From positions 1 through 63,921 of the forward strand of contig JBFWOE010000004.1 in the NCBI GenBank assembly GCA_050250695.1: DNA of 63,921 nt, given 5' to 3'. The stretch is from Burkholderiales bacterium. GTDB lineage: Bacteria; Pseudomonadota; Gammaproteobacteria; Burkholderiales; SG8-41. Positions 3,024 to 17,239 of the stretch are shown here, in pieces (the stretch's first letter is position 1; each line of letters starts with the position of its first letter). The notes beneath the pieces were generated by a model. It made no database searches. It was not told where the DNA came from and saw nothing but the letters and a program-made list of their open reading frames with translations. The translations under genes and the position numbers were made by a program.

Positions 3024-4910
3024 GTGGCGACACCTGCAACGGAGCTTTTGTTGAAACCGACTGATATCGCGCACCCCGATTACTTCCATAAAGTTGTCGA
3101 TTGTCAGTGGGCCTGCCCGGCTCACACTCCCGTCCCCGAATACATCCGCTTGATCGCCGCAGGCCGCTACAGCGATGCCTACATGGTCAACTGGAACTCG
3201 AATGTGTTCCCCGGAATCCTGGGTCGTACTTGCGATCGCCCCTGCGAACCGGCCTGCCGCCGCGGCCGCGTCGAGGAAGGCAACGTCGAGATGCGCAAGC
3301 CGACCGCGCACGAAGACGGCCCGAAGCCGGAACCGGTGGCGATCTGCCGCCTGAAACGCGTCGCCGCCGACAACAAGGACGATGTAGCGCAGCGCATGCC
3401 GAAGGCGCCGAAGCAGAAAAACGGCAAACGCATCGCCTGCATCGGCGGCGGTCCTGCCTCGCTGACCGTGGCGCGCGATCTCGCGCCTCTGGGCTATGAC
3501 ATCACGATCTACGAAGCCGACCCCAAGGCCGGCGGTTTCATGCGCTCGCAGGTGCCGCGTTTCCGCCTGCCCGAATCGGTGATCGACGAGGAAGTCGGCT
3601 ACATCACCGGCATCGGCAACATCACGGTCAAGACCGGCACGCGCATCGACAGCCTGAAAAAAGTGCTGGCCGAAGGCTACGACGCGGTGTTTGTCGGCAC
3701 CGGCGCGCCGCGTGGTCGCGACCTCGACGTGCCCGGTCGCACCGAAGGTGCAAAAAACATCCATCTCGGCATCGACTGGCTGGCGAGCGTGTCGTTCGGC
3801 CACATCGAGAAGATCGGCAAAAAAGTCATCGTGCTCGGCGGCGGCAACACCGCGATGGACTGCTGCCGTTCGGCCAAACGCCTCGGCGGCGAGGACGTCA
3901 AGGTCATCGTGCGTTCGGGTTACGACGAGATGAAGGCCAGCCCGTGGGAAAAGGAAGATGCGATCCACGAAGGCATCCCCATCCTCAACTTCATGGTGCC
4001 CAAGTCGTGCAGGATCGAAAACGGCAAATTGACCGGCATGGTGTTCGAGAAGGTCAAGGCCGAATACGACGACAAGGGCCGGCGCAAGCTGGTACCCACG
4101 GGTGAACCCGATCAGCTGGTCGAGTGCGACGACGTGCTGGTGGCCATCGGCCAGGAAAACGCCTTTCCCTGGATCGAGCGTGACGCGGGCGTCGAATTCG
4201 ACAAATGGAACATGCCGGTGGTCGACAAGGTGACCTTCCAGTCGACCAACCCGAAAGTGTTTTTCGGCGGCGACTCGGCCTTCGGACCGAAGAACATCAT
4301 CTGGGCTGTGGCCCACGGCCATGAAGCCGCGGTGTCCATCGACAAGATGTTCGCCGGAGAAGAACTCACGGACCGCCCGTTGCCGGCAGTCACCGTGATT
4401 TCCCAGAAAATGGGCATTCACGAGTGGAGCTACGACAACGACATCTCGGCTGCGCTGCGCAACAAGGTACCGTGGCAGGACCAGAAGCTGACACTGAAGA
4501 ACATCAAGGTCGAGGTCGAACTCGGCTTTGACGCCAAGACCGGCTTTGCCGAAGCCCAGCGCTGCCTGAACTGCGACGTGCAGACGGTATTCACGCCGAG
4601 GCTGTGCATCGAGTGTGACGCCTGCGTCGACATCTGCCCCATGGACTGCATCACCTTCACCCCCGATGCCGAGGAAGCCGAGCTGCGCCGGCAGCTGACC
4701 GCACCTTCGCTGCACCCGGACCAGGGTCTCTACGTGTCGGACAAGCTGCGCATGACCGGCCGCATCATGGCCAAGGACGAGGACGTGTGCCTGCACTGCG
4801 GGCTGTGCGCCGAACGCTGCCCGACCGGCGCCTGGGACATGCAGAAATACCTGGTCAAGATGACCCACGCCGGCCCGGGCTGCCGCAAGCCGCAGCGCAA
4901 AGCCGCCTGA
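3024..4910 (+). CDS. GltD-like NAD(P)H-dependent flavin oxidoreductase fused to a 2x[4Fe-4S] ferredoxin domain (KorC-type subunit)
   Basis: GTG start. N-terminal Cys cluster as in the glutamate synthase small subunit (CQWACPAH...CDRPCEPAC). Two Rossmann motifs (IGGGPASL, LGGGNTAMDC). C-terminal CxxCxxCxxxCP-type motifs (CIECDACVDICP, CLHCGLCAERCP). Lies 16 nt upstream of korA. Confidence 0.8.
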   Translation: MATPATELLLKPTDIAHPDYFHKVVDCQWACPAHTPVPEYIRLIAAGRYSDAYMVNWNSNVFPGILGRTCDRPCEPACRRGRVEEGNVEMRKPTAHEDGPKPEPVAICRLKRVAADNKDDVAQRMPKAPKQKNGKRIACIGGGPASLTVARDLAPLGYDITIYEADPKAGGFMRSQVPRFRLPESVIDEEVGYITGIGNITVKTGTRIDSLKKVLAEGYDAVFVGTGAPRGRDLDVPGRTEGAKNIHLGIDWLASVSFGHIEKIGKKVIVLGGGNTAMDCCRSAKRLGGEDVKVIVRSGYDEMKASPWEKEDAIHEGIPILNFMVPKSCRIENGKLTGMVFEKVKAEYDDKGRRKLVPTGEPDQLVECDDVLVAIGQENAFPWIERDAGVEFDKWNMPVVDKVTFQSTNPKVFFGGDSAFGPKNIIWAVAHGHEAAVSIDKMFAGEELTDRPLPAVTVISQKMGIHEWSYDNDISAALRNKVPWQDQKLTLKNIKVEVELGFDAKTGFAEAQRCLNCDVQTVFTPRLCIECDACVDICPMDCITFTPDAEEAELRRQLTAPSLHPDQGLYVSDKLRMTGRIMAKDEDVCLHCGLCAERCPTGAWDMQKYLVKMTHAGPGCRKPQRKAA

Positions 4911-4926
4911 AAACACCACTTACACC

Positions 4927-6762
4927 ATGACATCCATCACTGCCGTCAACGACTTCGTCGTCAAGTTCGCCAACGTCAACGGTTCGGGCTCCGCCTCCGC
5001 CAACGAGCTGTTCGCAAGATCCATCCTGCGCATGGGCGTGCCGGTCAGCCCGCGCAACATTTTCCCGTCGAACATCCAGGGCCTGCCGACCTGGTACGAG
5101 GTGCGGATCAACGAGAAGGGCTACCAGGGCCGCCGCGGCGGCGTCGACCTGATGGTGGCAATGAACCCGCAGACCTGGGACAACGACGTCAAGGAAATCG
5201 AGTCCGGCGGCTACCTGTTCTATGACAACACCAAACCGCTGCCGAAATCGAAATTTCGCGATGACGTGACGCCTATCGGCATGCCGCTGACCGAAATCTG
5301 CAATTCGACCTACAGTGATCCGCGCCAGCGCCAGCTGTTCAAGAACATCATCTACGTCGGTGCGCTGTCGGCACTGATCGAGATCGACCCCAAGGTCATC
5401 GAGCAGCTGTTCTCGGAACAATACAAGGGCAAGGAAGCCCTGCTGCAGTCCAACGTCAAGGCCCTGCACCTCGGCCGCGACTATGCACTGAAAAACCTGC
5501 CCTGCCCGCTGGGCCTGCGCGTACAGCCGTCGGATGGCGTCGGCGACCGCATTTTCACCGACGGCAACAGCGCCGCGGCACTGGGCGCGGTCTACGGCGG
5601 CGCATCGGTCTGCGCCTGGTACCCGATCACGCCGTCCTCGTCACTGGCCGAAGCCTTCATGGCCTACTGCAAGAAACACCGCGTCGATGCCGGGTCCGGC
5701 AAGAACAAGTACGCGATCATCCAGGGTGAGGATGAACTGGCCTCGATCGGCATCGCCATCGGCGCCGGCTGGAACGGTGCGCGTTCTTTCACCGCGACTT
5801 CCGGCCCAGGCATTTCGCTGATGAGCGAATTCATCGGGCTCGCCTACTTCGCCGAGATCCCGGTGGTGCTGATCGACGTGCAGCGCGGCGGTCCGTCAAC
5901 CGGCATGCCGACTCGCACCCAGCAATCCGACATCCTCGCCTGCGCCTACGCTTCGCACGGCGACACCAAGCACGTGCTGCTGTTTCCGGAAGATCCGACC
6001 GAGTGTTTCGAACTCACGGCGCAGGCCTTCGACCTCGCCGAGCGCCTGCAAACGCCGGTGTTCGTGATGACCGACCTCGACATCGGCATGAATACCCGGC
6101 TGTGCCGGCCCTTTGCCTGGGACGACACCAAGGAATACGACCGCGGCAAGGTGATGACCCATGACCGGCTCGAGGCCGGCGCCGATTTCGGGCGCTACCT
6201 CGACGTCGATGGCGACGGCATCCCGTTCCGCACCTATCCCGGCACCCATCCGACCAAGGGCGGCTATTTCACCCGCGGCACCACCAAGAACCGCTACGCG
6301 CAGTATTCCGAGGCCGGCCCGGATTACGTGGACAACATGCAGCGCCTGATGCGCAAGTTCGATACCGCGAAATCGCTGGTGCCGAAACCGCTGCTCTATC
6401 CCGCCGAAAAACCGGCGCGATTCGGCGCAATTTTCTACGGCTCGACCAGCCCGGCGATGCAGGAAGCGCTGGACGTGCTGTCCGAAAAGGGCATCCACGT
6501 CAACGCGCTGCGGGTGCGCGGTTTCCCGTTCGGTGACGAACTCAACGATTTCGTGCGTTCCCACCCCTGGGTGTTCGTGATCGAGCAGAACCGCGACGCC
6601 CAGCTGAAAACCCTGCTGGTCAACGACGGCAAGATCAATCCCTCGCGGCTGATTTCTGTGCTGCATTACGACGGCACGCCGATCACCGCGCGCTTCATCG
6701 TCGACCAGATTTCCCAGCACGCCGGCGCCCGCGCCGTGGTGCCGCTGAAGAAGGCATCCTGA
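4927..6762 (+). CDS. korA: 2-oxoacid:acceptor oxidoreductase subunit alpha (fused gamma/alpha, KorA type)
   Basis: 611 aa. Gamma-like N-terminus (VKFANVNGSGSASANELFA) is followed by the alpha domain (AWYPITPSS, GGPSTGMPT). Adjacent to the beta subunit. Confidence 0.9.
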   Translation: MTSITAVNDFVVKFANVNGSGSASANELFARSILRMGVPVSPRNIFPSNIQGLPTWYEVRINEKGYQGRRGGVDLMVAMNPQTWDNDVKEIESGGYLFYDNTKPLPKSKFRDDVTPIGMPLTEICNSTYSDPRQRQLFKNIIYVGALSALIEIDPKVIEQLFSEQYKGKEALLQSNVKALHLGRDYALKNLPCPLGLRVQPSDGVGDRIFTDGNSAAALGAVYGGASVCAWYPITPSSSLAEAFMAYCKKHRVDAGSGKNKYAIIQGEDELASIGIAIGAGWNGARSFTATSGPGISLMSEFIGLAYFAEIPVVLIDVQRGGPSTGMPTRTQQSDILACAYASHGDTKHVLLFPEDPTECFELTAQAFDLAERLQTPVFVMTDLDIGMNTRLCRPFAWDDTKEYDRGKVMTHDRLEAGADFGRYLDVDGDGIPFRTYPGTHPTKGGYFTRGTTKNRYAQYSEAGPDYVDNMQRLMRKFDTAKSLVPKPLLYPAEKPARFGAIFYGSTSPAMQEALDVLSEKGIHVNALRVRGFPFGDELNDFVRSHPWVFVIEQNRDAQLKTLLVNDGKINPSRLISVLHYDGTPITARFIVDQISQHAGARAVVPLKKAS

Positions 6763-6774
6763 CCCGGAAACATC

Positions 6775-7830
6775 ATGACCTATCTCGCCAAACCGAAACT
6801 GCACCACCCGTCGCTGGCCCCCAATGCCGCGGGCTACACCCGCCGCGATTACGAGGGCAAGATCTCCACGCTGTGTGCCGGCTGCGGCCATGACTCCATA
6901 TCGGCTTCGATCATCCAGGCCTGCTGGGAACTCGACATCCAGCCGCACCGGGTCGCCAAGCTCTCGGGCATCGGCTGCTCGTCGAAAACCCCGGACTATT
7001 TCCTCGGCAATTCACACGGCTTCAACAGCGTGCACGGCCGCATGCCCTCGGTGCTGACCGGCGCCAATCTCGCCAACCGCGACCTGCTCTACTTGGGCGT
7101 CTCGGGCGACGGCGATTCGGCCTCGATCGGACTGGGCCAGTTCGCGCACTGCATCCGCCGCGGCGTCAACATGGTTTACATCGTCGAGAACAACGGCGTA
7201 TACGGCCTCACCAAAGGCCAATTCTCGGCCACCGCCACCAAGGGCTCGAAATCCAAGCGCGGGGTTTTCAATCCCGACGAGGCGGTGGACCTGGTCGGCA
7301 TGGCGCTGCTGCTGCGCGCGACCTTCGTCGCGCGCGCCTTTTCCGGCGACAAGAAACAGCTGGTGCCGCTGATCAAGGCGGCGATCAGCCACCCCGGACC
7401 GTCGTTCATCGACATCATTTCGCCCTGCGTGGCCTTCAACAACCACGAGGGCTCGACCAAGTCCTACGATTACGTGCGCCAGCACAATGCCGCGGTCAAC
7501 CGCCTCGACTTCATCGAGTCGCGCGAGGAAATCACCGCCGATTACGCGCCTGGTGAGGTGATCAGCATCGCCCAGCACGACGGTTCGATGCTCAGATTGC
7601 GCAAGCTGGCGCCGGATTACGATCCCACCGACCGCATCCGGGCAATGAATTACGTGCAGGAACGCGCCGCTGCCGGCGAGATCGTCACCGGCCTGCTCTA
7701 CCTGTCGCCGGAGGCTGCCGATCTGCATCACTACATCAAGACCGTCGACACGCCGCTCAACCAGCTCGGTACGAAGGACCTGTGCCCGGGCTCGGCGGCG
7801 CTGGAAAAGATCAACGCCGGGCTGCGCTAG
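6775..7830 (+). CDS. korB: 2-oxoacid:ferredoxin oxidoreductase subunit beta (TPP-binding, KorB type)
   Basis: 351 aa. CAGCGH cluster motif and TPP motif GVSGDGDSASIG...ENNGVYGLTKGQ. Confidence 0.9.
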   Translation: MTYLAKPKLHHPSLAPNAAGYTRRDYEGKISTLCAGCGHDSISASIIQACWELDIQPHRVAKLSGIGCSSKTPDYFLGNSHGFNSVHGRMPSVLTGANLANRDLLYLGVSGDGDSASIGLGQFAHCIRRGVNMVYIVENNGVYGLTKGQFSATATKGSKSKRGVFNPDEAVDLVGMALLLRATFVARAFSGDKKQLVPLIKAAISHPGPSFIDIISPCVAFNNHEGSTKSYDYVRQHNAAVNRLDFIESREEITADYAPGEVISIAQHDGSMLRLRKLAPDYDPTDRIRAMNYVQERAAAGEIVTGLLYLSPEAADLHHYIKTVDTPLNQLGTKDLCPGSAALEKINAGLR

Positions 7831-10650: not shown

Positions 10651-11466
10651 TCAGCGCCTGACCCCGGGTGTTTCGACCGGCAAGCCCCGGGCGCGTTGCG
10701 CAAGATAGAACTCGAGGTCGAGGAGCTCCTCCGAACCGAACGCAGGCAAGCGGGCACGCACCCCGAAATAGCAGGAACGCAGGCGGCGGTGCAGCGACCC
10801 GGCAGACTGCCACTCCAGGCGATAAATCGGATAGGCGTTGCCATGGCCTTCACTGATCGTTTCCGACAGCAGCCTGCGCCCGACATTGCGTTCATGGCAG
10901 TGCATGCAGGCCAGGTTCATCTGGCCCTGCCTGCGATAGTAAATTTCCCTGCCGCGCCGGTAATGTTCGCGGTTACCGTCATCCACCCTGACTGCCAGAG
11001 GCAGCCCGCGTGACTGATGCGCAACATAGGCAGTCAACCCGAGCAGTTCATCAGATTCGTATGGATAGGCTTCCGCACCTTGCCGCATTTCGCGGCACTG
11101 GTTGATGCGCGCCTCGAGATTGAGCAGTTTCCCAGTGCCCTTGTCTTTCAGCGGGTAACGAACCGACACGCCCTTCATGCCGGATGCCGCATCCCGGTGA
11201 CAACTGGCACAGGATTTTCCGCTGCGTCCCTCAACGGCATTCCACAATTTTTCACCACGCGTCACCCACAGCATGCCGGGATTGGCGAAATCATCGGACT
11301 GCATGCGACGCACTTCTTCGCTGGAAAATTCGATACCGGACCTTACTGAAAGATCGCCCTGCATTTCAGCCGCAGCCACCACGCCGCCCCATAAGATCAT
11401 GATCAGCGCAGCAGCACATGTGCACCGACCAAAACCAAACCGGGTCCGCAAGAAAATATATGTCAT
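10651..11466 (-). CDS. soxA: dihaem c-type cytochrome SoxA
   Basis: 271 aa with a signal peptide. Two CxxCH motifs (CASCH, CMHCH) and the conserved cysteine in LRSCYFGVRA. ATGA overlap with the soxX stop. Confidence 0.88.
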   Translation of the reverse strand: MTYIFLRTRFGFGRCTCAAALIMILWGGVVAAAEMQGDLSVRSGIEFSSEEVRRMQSDDFANPGMLWVTRGEKLWNAVEGRSGKSCASCHRDAASGMKGVSVRYPLKDKGTGKLLNLEARINQCREMRQGAEAYPYESDELLGLTAYVAHQSRGLPLAVRVDDGNREHYRRGREIYYRRQGQMNLACMHCHERNVGRRLLSETISEGHGNAYPIYRLEWQSAGSLHRRLRSCYFGVRARLPAFGSEELLDLEFYLAQRARGLPVETPGVRR

Positions 11467-11963
11467 CGCAGGGTCTGCAGATAAGCAATGACATCTTCAA
11501 TTTGCTGGGCTGTCAGCGCGGGCCTCCCCTGCCAGGCTGCCGCCACCGATTCCAGCCCTTCGGTGCGGTAATACGGCGGCATTATGGTATTGACATTCAG
11601 GCGCTGCGAATCAACGATCCGCAAGCGCAGCTGGCCGGCATTCAGGCGCGCTCCAATTCCTGAAAGTTGAGGCCCGAGGTTCCCCATGAATCTTGTGCCC
11701 GTTTCGGGGACGGAATGACAAAGCAGGCAGTTCCCGTCCCGGCCCACAAACACCTCGCGGCCGCGCACCGCATCACCCGGATGACTGGAAAGCGGGGCAG
11801 AAATTTCATCGTTGCTGATCCGGTAGGGCACGATCCAGTCGGACGCCGCCACGCAAGCGACGAAGGCAAGCTGTAACGCTATGCACGCCGCACCGCGTAC
11901 CGCGACGCCTTTCAGAAAAACCATGTCCGCCAATCTGCGCCCTTGATCTGACTTAAGGCCCAT
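11463..11963 (-). CDS. soxX: monohaem c-type cytochrome SoxX
   Basis: 166 aa with a single CLLCH. C-terminal ...PALTAQQIEDVIAYLQTL is typical of SoxX. The ATG directly follows the soxZ stop (TGAATG). An internal Met at residue 14 is an alternative start. Confidence 0.85.
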   Translation of the reverse strand: MGLKSDQGRRLADMVFLKGVAVRGAACIALQLAFVACVAASDWIVPYRISNDEISAPLSSHPGDAVRGREVFVGRDGNCLLCHSVPETGTRFMGNLGPQLSGIGARLNAGQLRLRIVDSQRLNVNTIMPPYYRTEGLESVAAAWQGRPALTAQQIEDVIAYLQTLR

Positions 11964-12284
11964 TCACGACACAACTATTTTCGCGGTCTCAGTCAAGGAA
12001 AACCCATTATCGCCCGTCCAGCGAAACTCCAGAGTCCCGCTTTGGGCTGCCACGGTAAAAAACCAAAACAGCGGATTCGCGGTAATCGAGGGATGCAGTG
12101 TTGCACGGAAGATTTCCACGCCTTCGTAGCGGCAGACGAAGCTCGTGATGATGTTGCGAGGAATGCGTTCCCCCGTCTGCGTGTGGCGGAATCCGGTTTC
12201 CATCGGATGACGCACCAGCGCCTTGATCTCGATAACCTCGCCACGCCGGGCGGTCGCGGGTACGCTGATGATCGCATCGGCCAT
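11964..12284 (-). CDS. soxZ: sulfur carrier complex subunit SoxZ
   Basis: Start re-placed at ATG 12284 (MADAIISVPATARRGEVIEIKALVRHPMETG...), which overlaps the soxY-like stop by 1 nt (TGATG). 106 aa, typical SoxZ length and sequence. Confidence 0.85.
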   Translation of the reverse strand: MADAIISVPATARRGEVIEIKALVRHPMETGFRHTQTGERIPRNIITSFVCRYEGVEIFRATLHPSITANPLFWFFTVAAQSGTLEFRWTGDNGFSLTETAKIVVS

Positions 12285-12757
12285 CAGACGAGATCCCCGA
12301 TGCATGCCGACAGCGTCACCACGACGCTGACCGAGTCCGACCAGAAAGTGCCGTCGCTCATTTCGGCGACCGCATGCACGGTCTGCGAATCAGCCAGCCG
12401 CATTCTCGTGGTTACCCGCGCACGCCCTGCGCGCGGTCCGAGATAGGCGTTGATCACGTACGGCTGGGGGTTTTTCTCGGCGAATACGTGTATGGCTTTA
12501 ACGTAATCCGTTTCCGTCATCGGACTGTCGACGGTCACCGAAAACTCGACCGAGTTGCCGTTTTCCACCAGCGGCGGCAGTTGCAGCCTGACGCGCCCGT
12601 GGCGCGGGGCAGCGCCACCCGTGATCGTTTTCAACGCCGCCCGCATCGCTTCCGGCGTCGCCAGCGCGGGGATGGCCAGTGCCGCCGCGCCGGCGCCGCC
12701 GGCCGTGCGGCCGGCGGTCTTCAGGAAATCGCGGCGGTGCGGGTCAAACGAGCTCAA
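12284..12757 (-). CDS. SoxY-related sulfur carrier protein with variant C-terminal cysteine arm
   Basis: 157 aa with twin-arginine signal HRRDFLK and a SoxY-like body (LPPLVENGNSVEFSV, KAIHVFAEKNP). The C-terminus is ...VVVTLSACIGDLV rather than GGCGG. The only in-frame start is TTG at 12757, 14 nt inside the upstream molybdoenzyme gene. Confidence 0.8.
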   Translation of the reverse strand: MSSFDPHRRDFLKTAGRTAGGAGAAALAIPALATPEAMRAALKTITGGAAPRHGRVRLQLPPLVENGNSVEFSVTVDSPMTETDYVKAIHVFAEKNPQPYVINAYLGPRAGRARVTTRMRLADSQTVHAVAEMSDGTFWSDSVSVVVTLSACIGDLV

Positions 12758-14936
12758 TGCCGTGGTTCTTCAGCGGCACCGACCGCATGCGCTTCCCGGT
12801 CGCCTTGAAATAGGCATTGAGCACGGCCGGCGCCGCCACGCAGATGGTCGGTTCGCCGATGCCGCCCCAAACCTTCCCTCCGGTCGGCATGATGATGCAT
12901 TCGACCTTGGGCATCTGCGCGATGCGCATCGAATCATAAGTATGGAAATTGTCCTGCTCGATGCGGCCATCCTTGACCGTGCACTCCTGCATGAACAGCG
13001 CGGACAGGCCGTAGACGAACGAACCGGAGATTTGGCGTTCGATCTGCGCCGGATTGACCGCGTAACCCGGGTCGGTCGCTGCCACGATGCGATGCACCTT
13101 GACCTTGTTGCCGGTGCTGTCCACAGAAATCTCGCAAGCGGCAGCGACAAAGCTGTCGAATGCCTTCATCTGCGCCAGACCGCGGAAACGCCCCTTGGGC
13201 GCGGGTTTCGTCCAGCCGATGCGCTCGGCAACGGCATTCAGCACGCCGAGATTGCGCGGATGACTGGACATGAATTTGCGACGGAACTCCAGAGGATCCT
13301 GTCCCGCGGCATGCGCGAGTTCGTCCATGAAACATTCGATGAATACGGCGTTCTGGTTGATGTTGACGCCGCGCCAGAATCCGGGCGGCACATGCGGGTT
13401 GCGCATGGCGTGATCGATCAGCAGGTTCGGGAAAGTGTAACCGATCGAATGCTCGCCGCTCTCGGCCACGCCCTGGAAGGTCAACGGATCCTTGCCGCCG
13501 GCTTTTTCGACGATGGCAGGACGCACCGAAGCCAGTATCGACTGCCCGGACAGGCGCATGTGCAAACCGGTGAGGTTGTTGGCGGAATCGAAGCTGCCGG
13601 TGAGCTTGCACTGCATGACCGGGTGGTAGCGGCCCTGGCGCATGTCCTCCTCGCGCGTCCACAGCAGCTTCACCGGCGTTCCCGGCATCTGCTTCGCGAT
13701 CAGCACCGCCTGCTTCACATAATCCTGAAAGGCGCCGCGCCGGCCGAAACCGCCGCCGAGATCGATCTTGTAGACCTCGCACTTGTCCGCGGTCAGGCCA
13801 GAAGCCGCCAGCACTGCTGCAAACGACGCCTCTCCGTCCTGCGTCGGCACCCACACCTCGCACCTGTCCGGGGTGTAGCGAGCAGTCGCATTCATCGGCT
13901 CCATCGGCGCATGGTTCTGGTACGGATAGGAATAGACCGCGTCGATTTTCTTGGCCGCACCGCCCAGCGCTGCCTGGATGTCGCCCGCCTTGTTGCCGAC
14001 GAAAGCCTGCGGCGCGTCCAGTCCTGCCTTGAGCGTCTCAGCGATCGATGCGCTCGATACCTTGGCGTTGCTGCCGAAATCCCAGTCGATGGGCAGCGCA
14101 TCGAGCGCCTTCTTTGCATGCCACCAGGTGTCCGCAACGACGGCAACCGCGGTATCGCCGACGCGCAGCACCTGCTTCACGCCTTTCATGCCGGATACTT
14201 TGGCGGCATCGAAACCCTTCAGTTTCCCGCCGAATACCGGGCACTCCATGATGGTCGCGTTGACCATTCCAGGCAGCTTCAGGTCGGCGCCGTAGACCTG
14301 ACGGCCGGTCACCTTGTCGACCGTGCCGAACCGTTTCATCGGCTTGCCGGCGACCTTCCATGTCTTGGGGTCCTTGAGCCTGATGGCTTTCACGTCGGGC
14401 GGCGACAGTTTCGCCGCGGCCGCAGCCACCTTGCCGTAGGTCACCTTGCGGCCGCTGGCTCCATGCGTGATGACGCCCTTGCTGACCGAAAGCTGGCCGA
14501 CCGGCACTTGCCATTGATCGGCGGCTGCCTGCATCAGCATCATGCGTGCGGCAGCGCCGCCGCGTCGCACATAGTCGTGCGAAGTACGGATGCCGCGACT
14601 GCCGCCGGTCGAGAAACTCTGCCAGACGCGATTGCGTTTCAGGTTCTCGCCCGGCGTCGGATATTCTGTACTGACTTTCGACCAGTCGCATTCCAGTTCT
14701 TCGACGACCAGCTGCGCGAGGCCGGTGATCGTGCCCTGGCCCATCTCCGAGCGCGCAACGCGGATCACGACAGAATCATCGGGTTTGATCACCACCCAGG
14801 CATTGATTTCAGGTGCAGTCCCTGCGGCCTGCGCGGCCGCCGCGCTGAACGGCAACTGCAGCCCGAGTGCGAGACCGCCACCCGCGGCGGCACTGCTGAC
14901 CAGGAACGAACGGCGATTCAGATTGATCTTTTCCAT
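12744..14936 (-). CDS. xanthine dehydrogenase/aldehyde oxidase family molybdopterin-binding subunit (IorB-like, Tat-exported)
   Basis: Start re-placed at ATG 14936 (MEKINLNRRSFLVSSAAAGGGLAL..., Tat signal), with SD GGAGA 8-12 nt upstream. 730 aa and IorB-like throughout (SEMGQGT, PYQNHAPMEP, GGGFGRR, GGIGEP). Confidence 0.88.
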   Translation of the reverse strand: MEKINLNRRSFLVSSAAAGGGLALGLQLPFSAAAAQAAGTAPEINAWVVIKPDDSVVIRVARSEMGQGTITGLAQLVVEELECDWSKVSTEYPTPGENLKRNRVWQSFSTGGSRGIRTSHDYVRRGGAAARMMLMQAAADQWQVPVGQLSVSKGVITHGASGRKVTYGKVAAAAAKLSPPDVKAIRLKDPKTWKVAGKPMKRFGTVDKVTGRQVYGADLKLPGMVNATIMECPVFGGKLKGFDAAKVSGMKGVKQVLRVGDTAVAVVADTWWHAKKALDALPIDWDFGSNAKVSSASIAETLKAGLDAPQAFVGNKAGDIQAALGGAAKKIDAVYSYPYQNHAPMEPMNATARYTPDRCEVWVPTQDGEASFAAVLAASGLTADKCEVYKIDLGGGFGRRGAFQDYVKQAVLIAKQMPGTPVKLLWTREEDMRQGRYHPVMQCKLTGSFDSANNLTGLHMRLSGQSILASVRPAIVEKAGGKDPLTFQGVAESGEHSIGYTFPNLLIDHAMRNPHVPPGFWRGVNINQNAVFIECFMDELAHAAGQDPLEFRRKFMSSHPRNLGVLNAVAERIGWTKPAPKGRFRGLAQMKAFDSFVAAACEISVDSTGNKVKVHRIVAATDPGYAVNPAQIERQISGSFVYGLSALFMQECTVKDGRIEQDNFHTYDSMRIAQMPKVECIIMPTGGKVWGGIGEPTICVAAPAVLNAYFKATGKRMRSVPLKNHGIELV

Positions 14937-14947
14937 GTCGCTGTCTC

Positions 14948-15397
<450 letters not shown>

Positions 15398-15644: not shown

Positions 15645-16385
15645 TTATCGAGGTATCGCCGCACTGTTCATGCGCGCAAGAATAGTCTGGGTGCGCTGCT
15701 GCAGGTAAGCCGTATTGCTCCCCGGTCCGTAGCGGCGCGGGCTGGGCACGATGGCTGCCAGCCGTGCCGCCTGCCCGGCGTCCAGCGCCGCCGCGCTGAT
15801 GCCGTAATGATGGCGCGCCGCCGCCTCCGCGCCATAGACGCCTTCGCCCCATTCGATGACATTCAGGTAGATTTCGAGGATGCGCCGTTTGCTCATGATG
15901 GTTTCGAGCATCACGGTGACCGCCGCTTCCTGGGCCTTGCGCCACCACGCGCGCTCGCCGGTAAAAAACAGGTTCTTGGCCAGCTGCTGGGTGATGGTCG
16001 AACCTCCGGCGACGATTTCACCTTCGCGCAGGTTTCGCTCCAGCGCATGGCGGATGCCGTCCCAGTCGAATCCCCGGTGAGTGGCAAACTTGGCATCCTC
16101 CGAGGCCACCACCGCGCGTTTCAGGTGCGCGGAGATACGCTGGTACGGCACCCACTGCCGGCGCAGTTTTGCCCGCGGATTGTCCTCGCGCAGGATTTCC
16201 AGGCGCGCCCGCATGAAGGCCGTGGTCTCGGGATTGTGGTCCACCCAGTACCAGACGTGCACCAGGAACCAGAACTGCACCGCCGCCAGCGCGATCAGCG
16301 CCAGCAGCAGTGAGCGCCAGGTCCAGCGCAGCAGCAGCCGCAACAGGGTTGGTCGCGCGGCGGTTCCGGCCTTGGCCCGTGCCAT
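15645..16385 (-). CDS. mtgA: monofunctional biosynthetic peptidoglycan transglycosylase
   Basis: 246 aa with an N-terminal TM helix. GT51 motifs VASEDAKFATHRGFDW and GGSTITQQLAKN. Confidence 0.93.
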   Translation of the reverse strand: MARAKAGTAARPTLLRLLLRWTWRSLLLALIALAAVQFWFLVHVWYWVDHNPETTAFMRARLEILREDNPRAKLRRQWVPYQRISAHLKRAVVASEDAKFATHRGFDWDGIRHALERNLREGEIVAGGSTITQQLAKNLFFTGERAWWRKAQEAAVTVMLETIMSKRRILEIYLNVIEWGEGVYGAEAAARHHYGISAAALDAGQAARLAAIVPSPRRYGPGSNTAYLQQRTQTILARMNSAAIPR

Positions 16386-16414
16386 GATCAGTACGGCGGT
16401 TCAGCCGGGAGGAA

Positions 16415-17239
16415 TCAACGGCGACCGCGCAGCAGCGCGATCACAGGCACCGTTTCCGGACGCACACCACGCCAGATGAAAAAGGACTCCGCTGCCTGCT
16501 CGACCAGCATGCCGAGGCCGTCCACGGCGTGCGCGCCGGCTTTGCGCGCAAACTCCATGAAGGGCGTGTCGCGGCCGTAGACCATGTCGTAGGCCAGTGC
16601 ATCTGGAGCGAAAATACCCGGGGGCAGTGGCGGCATTTCACCGCTGAGGCCGGCGGAAGTTGCATTGATCACAATATCAAACTGCTCACCGGCGAGTCTG
16701 CTGTACGGTTTGGCTTCCAAGCCGGTAGCTGTTACGCCCTGATGGTTCTCGACCGTCTTCACCAGTCTTTGTGCTTTCTCAAGGGTCCGGTAGGCAAGCG
16801 TCAACGTTCGGTTTTCGCGTAATAACGGGAACATTACGCCATATGCAGCACCACCCGTGCCCAGCAGCAACACCCGTTTGCCGGCAATTTCGATCCCGAT
16901 ATTTTTCTTGAGATCGTTTACCAAACCTGTGCCGTCGGTGTTGTAACCGATGAGTTTTCCGGACTCGGTTTTAATGGTATTCACTGCTTCCGCATCCAGC
17001 GCATCACCGGCATGGGTATTGACCATGTCCCATGCTTCACGCTTGAACGGCACCGTGACGTTCAGTCCCTTCCCGCCTTCGCTGAAAAATCGCCTGGCCG
17101 TGGCTTCAAACGCATTGAGCGGAGCCAGCAGTCTTTCATATGAAATATCCTGCCCGGTCTGCCGCGCAAATTCCGCATGGATCTGCGGCGATTTGCTGTG
17201 TTCGACCGGATTGCCGATGACTGCGTAACGGTCGGTCAT
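16415..17239 (-). CDS. aroE: shikimate dehydrogenase
   Basis: 274 aa. VIGNPVEHSKSPQIH, NVTVPFK, NTDG and LLGTGGAA motifs. Confidence 0.93.
   Translation of the reverse strand: MTDRYAVIGNPVEHSKSPQIHAEFARQTGQDISYERLLAPLNAFEATARRFFSEGGKGLNVTVPFKREAWDMVNTHAGDALDAEAVNTIKTESGKLIGYNTDGTGLVNDLKKNIGIEIAGKRVLLLGTGGAAYGVMFPLLRENRTLTLAYRTLEKAQRLVKTVENHQGVTATGLEAKPYSRLAGEQFDIVINATSAGLSGEMPPLPPGIFAPDALAYDMVYGRDTPFMEFARKAGAHAVDGLGMLVEQAAESFFIWRGVRPETVPVIALLRGRR

What the first reader, a model, noticed from the sequence alone, without database searches (positions are those of the whole stretch)
12284..12310. SoxY-like carrier ends in ...SACIGDLV instead of the canonical GGCGG swinging arm
In characterised SoxY proteins the sulfur-carrying cysteine sits in a flexible, Gly-flanked C-terminal GGCGG-COOH peptide. 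Here the Tat-exported SoxY homologue ends VVVTLSACIGDLV. The Cys (codon 12302-12304) has Ala and Ile neighbours and five residues follow it, including an acidic one. From memory, NCBI protein-family curation has a SoxY-related AACIE-arm family; this protein resembles that class, which to my knowledge has no assigned biochemical role. A bulkier, charged arm predicts different partner enzymes, consistent with the absent SoxB and the fused Mo enzyme.
Basis: partly seen in the sequence, partly recalled or inferred. Interest (0 to 1): 0.55.

Follow-up and report, generated by a model that had tools for sequence, protein, structure and literature searches.

The report
Variant sulfur carrier for molybdenum enzyme
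This is a real member of a named but untested family of SoxY-like sulfur carriers, and modelling plus comparative genomics suggest its cysteine arm serves the xanthine-oxidase-type molybdenum enzyme encoded next to it rather than the textbook thiosulfate-oxidation enzymes.

Summary
Observation confirmed. The Tat-exported SoxY homologue at 12284-12757(-) ends SACIGDLV, with Cys152 in the canonical carrier register. It passes NCBIfam TIGR04487 (AACIE arm; 200.4 vs cut-off 172) and fails true SoxY (105 vs 125). It is not a frameshift: Cys is 56/56 conserved and the nearest relative has the same tail. Two corrections: the genome has a canonical soxB elsewhere, and the Mo enzyme is an overlapping gene, not fused. 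The carrier sits in an iorA-iorB-soxY'Z'-soxX-soxA operon. That cluster type was described in Starkeya novella (2013), and this scan has found it before on other genomes. New here: a predicted IorB-SoxY' complex scored 0.68 (best control 0.01; mark reached by 58/80 solved, 2/110 mismatched pairs), with the Cys arm among funnel-lining segments. The central contact, IorB Ala373, is small in 91/91 linked enzymes but K/E/R in three partnerless relatives (two lineages). Five closed genomes keep the module without soxB or soxC. Best reading: a dedicated carrier-Mo-hydroxylase pair handling arm-bound sulfur; substrate and direction are unproven.

The parts
12284..12757 (-). soxY' - SoxY-related AACIE-arm carrier, 157 aa, Tat signal, arm Cys152 (codon 12302-12304), TTG start overlapping iorB by 14 bp
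   Evidence: TIGR04487 200.4 vs 172; SoxY fold, TM about 0.8 to 2ox5
12284..12310 (-). C-terminal arm SACIGDLV and stop; predicted to contact the IorB funnel
   Evidence: the last residues have low confidence (pLDDT 56) in the free model, as for a mobile arm
12744..14936 (-). iorB-like Tat-exported molybdenum hydroxylase large subunit (xanthine oxidase family, 730 aa). Catalytic Glu695, Gln366 and Arg522 kept; clade-typical Arg114; docking residue Ala373
   Evidence: (nearest solved 8gy3_C, TM 0.90)
14948..15397 (-). iorA-like small subunit with two [2Fe-2S] clusters; no FAD subunit in the operon
11964..12284 (-). soxZ', signal-less partner of the carrier, TGATG overlap with soxY'
   Evidence: TIGR04490 80.2 vs 76
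11463..11963 (-). soxX', monoheme cytochrome c with His/Met ligands
   Evidence: (TIGR04485 77.7 vs 61)
10651..11466 (-). soxA', diheme SoxA; catalytic Arg228 and Cys232 kept (58/58), altered pocket with invariant YRLEW motif
   Evidence: (TIGR04484 226.8 vs 110)

Best explanation
SoxY'Z' is the dedicated periplasmic carrier of the IorAB molybdenum hydroxylase. SoxA'X' (and a SoxF-type flavoprotein in many relatives) oxidatively loads the arm Cys with a small anionic sulfur species, such as a persulfide or S-oxyanion conjugate, passing electrons to cytochrome c (inferred from intact active sites and known Sox chemistry). The carrier docks on IorB with its PPLVEN loop and RLA strand, and the Ala-Cys arm enters the substrate funnel (modelled). 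The Mo centre then discharges the cargo, taking over the unloading role of SoxB/SoxCD. I think sulfur-atom exchange between arm and Mo, coupled to making or breaking a C-S bond on a small organic substrate, is the most likely chemistry (about 0.3 overall). Direct oxidation of the tethered cargo is next (about 0.25). Shown: sequence, family, operon, linkage. Modelled: docking. Inferred: cargo, direction and substrate.
For: Linkage: iorB lies in 61 of 61 non-GGCG loci with enough flank and in 0 of 11 GGCG-type loci. In a 400-genome phylum draw, all 22 genomes with this arm carry the same IorB clade within about 5 kb. Complex model IorB + SoxY': score 0.68, best of 3 controls 0.01; the mark was reached by 58/80 solved and 2/110 mismatched pairs; runs agree in at least 70% of contacts; partner pLDDT at least 82; arm residues including the Cys are in the interface. 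IorB contact segments adjoin the Mo-site motifs TGGS, TQ, GGGFGRR and WRGV; their match to xanthine oxidase funnel segments is from my own knowledge. Ala373 appears in four of the lowest-error contacts; it is A/G/S in 91/91 linked enzymes and K, E or R in three stand-alone clade members from genomes without this carrier. In this genus SoxY'/Z' track IorAB, not SoxXA: L004 has two iorAB-soxYZ sets and one soxXA, and three loci have only iorAB-soxYZ nearby. The funnel has clade-typical Arg114 (83/91; generic paralogues Thr 32/42), kept even where the arm has no acid. Five closed genomes have this as their only SoxY and lack soxB and soxC.
Against: No experiment exists. The model lacked SoxZ', IorA and the cofactor, I had no coordinates to measure a Cys-Mo distance, and the calibration holds only roughly for my own alignments. 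Four of 26 sampled genomes with the IorB clade have no such carrier, so the enzyme type can work alone; one keeps soxXA without soxYZ and keeps Ala at the docking site (L168). The Ala373 contrast rests on two independent lineages. Distance correlations do not single out IorB-SoxY' outside this genus (all pairs 0.66-0.80). No neighbouring gene points to a substrate. I know of no xanthine-oxidase-family enzyme shown to act on a protein-bound substrate.
Confidence: 0.6

Rival explanations
1. Maintenance role: IorAB is an ordinary periplasmic aldehyde or heterocycle hydroxylase, and the persulfide-loaded arm only restores its labile terminal Mo=S ligand after export.
For: Fits the same docking model. 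Xanthine-oxidase-family enzymes need a terminal sulfur that XdhC/NifS4 install before cofactor insertion (PMC2997495), so they have no known repair route in the periplasm (inference). Partnerless relatives exist, and one has xdhC beside it (L167).
Against: The genome has xdhC. xdhC adjacency is 3/62 in linked loci vs 7/41 in generic loci, p=0.08, not significant. Generic periplasmic iorAB paralogues need no such module. The funnel itself is remodelled with Arg residues.
Confidence: 0.15
2. Electron-relay role: SoxX'A' is mainly the cytochrome c acceptor of an FAD-less aldehyde dehydrogenase, as the cytochrome subunit is for Gluconobacter AldFGH, and SoxY'Z' is accessory or regulatory.
For: The nearest solved relative is the Gluconobacter aldehyde dehydrogenase large subunit 8gy3_C. 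L168 has iorAB-soxX-soxA without soxYZ, and L170 has a plain cytochrome c beside iorA.
Against: The arm Cys and the SoxA catalytic Cys/Arg are invariant. Loci with iorAB-soxYZ and no nearby soxXA exist. SoxY'Z' follows IorAB within the genus. The modelled arm sits in the funnel.
Confidence: 0.15
3. Isoform of the canonical thiosulfate pathway, working in trans with SoxB and SoxCD encoded elsewhere.
For: SoxX, SoxZ and SoxA pass the canonical family cut-offs. soxB is present in this genome and in 27 of 50 other module-bearing genomes.
Against: Five closed genomes have the module and no soxB, soxC or canonical soxY. The S. novella second cluster was barely expressed, including on thiosulfate (PMC3797975). 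In B. diazoefficiens only soxY1 is essential for thiosulfate oxidation (PMC5748708); that its soxY2 is AACIE-type is my inference from other Bradyrhizobium loci. SoxA' usually lacks an Arg that 9/9 canonical SoxA have.
Confidence: 0.07
4. Frameshift, sequencing error or decayed pseudogene of canonical soxY.
For: The assembly shows no other SoxY-family match.
Against: Identical tail in the nearest relative, conservation in over 100 homologues and a curated family hit. The canonical cluster is cut by a contig end inside soxZ, which explains the missing true soxY.
Confidence: 0.01

Closest known systems
NCBIfam TIGR04487, SoxY-related AACIE arm protein
   Same: Passes the curated cut-off; Tat signal, SoxY fold, Ala-Cys-hydrophobic arm with a tail
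   Different: Subtype tail SACIGDLV has Gly where the family has Glu or Asp; the family has no tested function in the library searched
Starkeya novella second sox cluster (soxX2Y2Z2A2F2 plus xanthine-oxidase-family enzyme Snov_1975/1976; PMC3797975)
   Same: Same gene set without soxB and soxCD, beside a complete canonical cluster elsewhere
   Different: No soxF here and order iorAB-Y-Z-X-A; the paper offers no function and I did not check the S. novella SoxY2 tail
Canonical SoxYZ (TIGR04488; PDB 2ox5, 2oxg, and 4uwq with SoxB)
   Same: Fold, Cys register, SoxZ partner, SoxAX loader; from my own knowledge the same loop at the arm base docks on SoxB
   Different: No GGCGG end; fails the family cut-off; linked to IorAB rather than SoxB/SoxCD
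Membrane-bound aldehyde dehydrogenase large subunit of Gluconobacter oxydans (PDB 8gy3_C)
   Same: Nearest solved relative of IorB (TM 0.90); Tat-exported, FAD-less Mo/2Fe-2S enzyme
   Different: Only 25% identical; Trp for Arg114 and Leu for Gly401 in the funnel; uses its own cytochrome, no carrier protein
Thiourocanate desulfurising xanthine oxidoreductase of Blautia producta (Feng et al. 2025, doi 10.1021/jacs.4c09350)
   Same: Chemical precedent: a xanthine-oxidase-family enzyme that breaks a C-S bond. Searches confirm the citation and the reductive desulfurisation; its sulfurtransferase partner is from my memory
   Different: Anaerobic gut pathway; no SoxYZ or SoxAX as far as I recall; homology to this IorB clade not tested
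[quoted passage not shown]
   Same: Another SoxYZ-like carrier recruited to a non-Sox periplasmic dehydrogenase (PMC12997753)
   Different: Fused YZ, PQQ enzymes; score 59 vs cut-off 140

Membership tests
TIGR04487 SoxY-related AACIE arm protein | HMM score above curated cut-off 172 | tested here: met
   200.4 bits full length; 188.5 for the mature part
TIGR04487 SoxY-related AACIE arm protein | C-terminal x-Ala-Cys-hydrophobic arm with a short tail instead of GGCGG | tested here: met
   SACIGDLV; differs from consensus at +2
TIGR04487 SoxY-related AACIE arm protein | SoxY fold and twin-arginine export signal | tested here: met
   Model pLDDT 91.5, TM about 0.8 to 2ox5; RRDFLK motif
TIGR04488 true SoxY | HMM score above cut-off 125 | tested here: not met
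   105 bits
TIGR04488 true SoxY | GGCGG at the C-terminus | tested here: not met
TIGR04488 true SoxY | Clustered with soxB and soxCD | tested here: not met
   Operon holds iorAB, soxZ, soxX, soxA only; soxB is on contig C160
Sox-type covalent carrier (works like SoxYZ) | Cys carries a covalent sulfur conjugate in vivo | not testable with these tools
   Needs mass spectrometry; Cys is invariant and in register
TIGR04557 quinoprotein-associated SoxYZ-like carrier | Fused YZ, score above 140, PQQ enzyme context | tested here: not met
   59 bits; separate Y and Z genes
Xanthine oxidase family, IorB/AldH branch (partner enzyme) | Mo-cofactor domains with catalytic Glu, Gln and Arg, plus a two-[2Fe-2S] small subunit | tested here: met
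   Pfam MoCoBD_1 and MoCoBD_2; Glu 91/91, Gln 91/91; fold
S. novella-type second sox cluster | soxXYZA with a xanthine-oxidase-family enzyme and without soxBCD; soxF usual | tested here: met
   soxF is absent here, present in 47 of 69 related loci

The most novel reading that the evidence does not exclude
A xanthine-oxidase-family molybdenum enzyme that takes its sulfur substrate from, or hands sulfur to, a protein swinging arm as part of every turnover. This would be a second, SoxB/SoxCD-independent periplasmic carrier pathway, present in about 5% of sampled Pseudomonadota genomes, that makes or breaks C-S bonds or oxidises arm-bound sulfur.
Probability: 0.5. Interest if true: 0.75.

Novelty: new member of a known kind. 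Interest (0 to 1): 0.5.

Why it matters
The family is named and the cluster was noted in 2013, but no function has been assigned, and thousands of copies are annotated as thiosulfate-oxidation SoxY. Closed genomes without soxB or soxC show that such calls overstate Sox potential in metagenomes. The docking model and the Ala373 contrast turn a vague association into a specific test. If the arm feeds the Mo centre, it adds new chemistry to the xanthine oxidase family and an unrecognised sulfur route in common soil and freshwater bacteria (Bradyrhizobium, Tardiphaga, Polynucleobacter).

Tried and rejected
Frameshift or artefact: rejected. 'SoxB absent from the organism': rejected. SoxC in this genome: only a sub-cut-off hit (177 vs 420), uninformative because the canonical cluster is cut by a contig end. 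SoxYZ replacing XdhC: adjacency test not significant (3/62 vs 7/41, p=0.08). Distance correlation of gene families: discriminates only within the genus and not in 42 outside loci, so it is weak evidence. Neighbour clustering for a substrate clue found nothing shared beyond the core genes and soxF. Promoter and terminator scan gave chance levels. Full-text searches for TIGR04487 and AACIE found nothing. Masuda 2010, Kappler and Maher 2013 and Grabarczyk 2015 were not held, so SoxB-interface and xanthine oxidase residue equivalences rest on my own knowledge. The taxon of the soxB-less family f88 could not be named.

Full report
Observation. The minus-strand ORF 12284-12757 encodes 157 residues with an RRDFLK Tat motif and ends VVVTLSACIGDLV-stop. 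The Cys aligns with the GGCGG Cys of solved SoxY proteins. The model has the SoxY fold (pLDDT 91.5; TM about 0.8 to 2ox5) with a low-confidence tail. NCBIfam gives TIGR04487 200.4 (cut-off 172), true SoxY 105 (125) and TIGR04557 59 (140). It is not a frameshift: L003 has the same tail, Cys is 56/56 and the preceding Ala 55/56, and all 120 listed of at least 8000 database hits end x-A-C plus 4-7 residues (the 8000 may include canonical SoxY).

Operon. Six abutting genes on the minus strand: iorA-like 2Fe-2S subunit (14948-15397), Tat-exported iorB-like Mo hydroxylase (12744-14936), soxY', soxZ' (11964-12284), soxX' (11463-11963) and diheme soxA' (10651-11466). IorB is a separate gene, not fused. 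Its nearest solved relative is the Gluconobacter aldehyde dehydrogenase large subunit 8gy3_C, and its catalytic Glu and Gln are invariant. SoxA' keeps the catalytic Arg228/Cys232 pair (58/58) but mostly lacks an Arg found in 9/9 canonical SoxA and has an invariant YRLEW motif, so its pocket differs. The genome also has a canonical soxB (858 bits) in a soxZ-A-X-B cluster on contig C160, which ends inside soxZ; this explains why no true soxY is assembled.

Comparative genomics. Among 80 fetched loci, 69 have non-GGCG arms. iorB is present in all 61 with enough flank and in none of the 11 GGCG-type loci. soxF lies between iorB and soxX in 47 of 69. In an even draw of 400 near-complete genomes of the phylum, 22 have this arm and each has the same IorB clade close by. 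That clade is separated from generic paralogues by a gap of 849 to 535 bits, and 4 of its 26 genomes lack the carrier. The linked IorB proteins form one supported clade in a FastTree tree, with partnerless copies nested inside. soxB was found in 27/50 and 25/38 module-bearing genomes. Five closed genomes of one family have this carrier as their only SoxY and no soxB or soxC, so the module does not need the canonical pathway.

Which partner. In this genus two module types occur. The window's IorB, SoxY' and SoxZ' belong together to type 1 (81-93%, 65-86% and 73-77% identity) and are far from type 2 (57-60%, 40-56%, 42-52%), while SoxX and SoxA are similar to both (54-68%, 60-81%). L004 holds both iorAB-soxYZ sets with one soxXA. 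Adjacency could also explain this block inheritance, and outside the genus distance correlations do not discriminate. Three loci have iorAB-soxYZ alone and one has iorAB-soxXA alone.

Complex prediction. Mature IorB plus mature SoxY', each with a 56-row alignment, scored 0.68 against a best control of 0.01. The mark was reached by 58 of 80 solved complexes and 2 of 110 mismatched pairs; runs agree in at least 70% of contacts and partner pLDDT is at least 82. The model supports binding; it does not show it, and the counts hold only roughly for my alignments. My PDB searches returned only SoxZ and SoxB as solved partners of SoxY, so recall of a like complex is unlikely. SoxY' contributes the PPLVENG loop, the NP turn, the RLAD strand and the arm including Cys152. 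IorB contributes the segment before TGGS, the helix after the TQ motif, the residues after GGGFGRR, the helix after GQSI and the Phe before WRGV. By motif these match funnel-lining parts of xanthine oxidase (own knowledge). SoxZ', IorA and cofactor were not included. An independent check: IorB Ala373 (336 in the modelled numbering), in four of the best contacts, is Ala, Gly or Ser in 91/91 linked enzymes. It is Lys, Glu and Arg in three stand-alone clade members whose genomes lack the carrier (two lineages), and Ala in a stand-alone copy whose genome has the module elsewhere and in the soxXA-only locus. The clade's funnel also carries Arg114 (83/91; generic Thr 32/42) and two further Arg, kept even where the arm has no acidic residue, which points to anionic cargo (inference).

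Mechanism. SoxAX and SoxF are, from established Sox biochemistry, enzymes that load or activate the SoxY Cys, and working intermediates are sulfane conjugates (PMC5336275). The unloading enzymes SoxB and SoxCD are missing from the module, and IorAB is the only other constant enzyme. I therefore read SoxY'Z' as a dedicated carrier whose arm is discharged at the IorB Mo site (0.6). Within that, sulfur exchange tied to C-S bond making or breaking (about 0.3) has precedent in the thiourocanate desulfurising xanthine oxidoreductase (details from memory), and oxidation of tethered cargo (about 0.25) has none that I know. Rivals are Mo=S repair (0.15; the xdhC test was not significant), electron relay (0.15), canonical isoform (0.07) and artefact (0.01).

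Known status. The protein is a member of TIGR04487. The gene set was described as the second sox cluster of S. novella, barely expressed under the conditions tested and without assigned function (PMC3797975). B. diazoefficiens needs only soxY1 for thiosulfate oxidation (PMC5748708). The arm itself is therefore a new member of a known kind. Interest 0.5.

Noticed in passing
G000:C160 (L002), 3505-6856: Canonical soxZ(cut)-soxA-soxX-soxB cluster at a contig end, followed by a type IV pilin-like gene; soxCDY are probably unassembled.
   Followed up: partly
L004:5355-13802 and L003: Two divergent iorAB-soxY'Z' sets in tandem; L004 has one soxXA for both.
   Followed up: yes
L172, L173, L174: Minimal iorAB-soxY-soxZ operons with short arms (AACGD, SGCG, TGCGT) forming their own IorB clade, with no soxXA in the fetched flank.
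   Followed up: partly
L168:5849-9910: iorAB-soxX-soxA with no soxYZ anywhere in a closed genome.
   Followed up: partly
L006, L020, L021, L030, L034, L036, L038, L047: Two tandem iorAB pairs before one soxF-X-Y-Z-A set; several second copies have Cys in the WRxV motif near the Mo site.
   Followed up: no
L016:8001-8534: AACIE-family gene whose tail is frameshifted in this assembly, with no arm motif in frame.
   Followed up: no
window 3024-7830 (+): Glutamate-synthase-like Fe-S flavoprotein followed by 2-oxoacid:ferredoxin oxidoreductase alpha and beta genes, then a TMEM164-like gene and kup.
   Followed up: no
window 15645-17239 (-): aroE and mtgA upstream of the operon; mtgA-like genes also precede the type 2 module in two relatives (L180, L181), suggesting a fixed chromosomal site.
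   Followed up: partly
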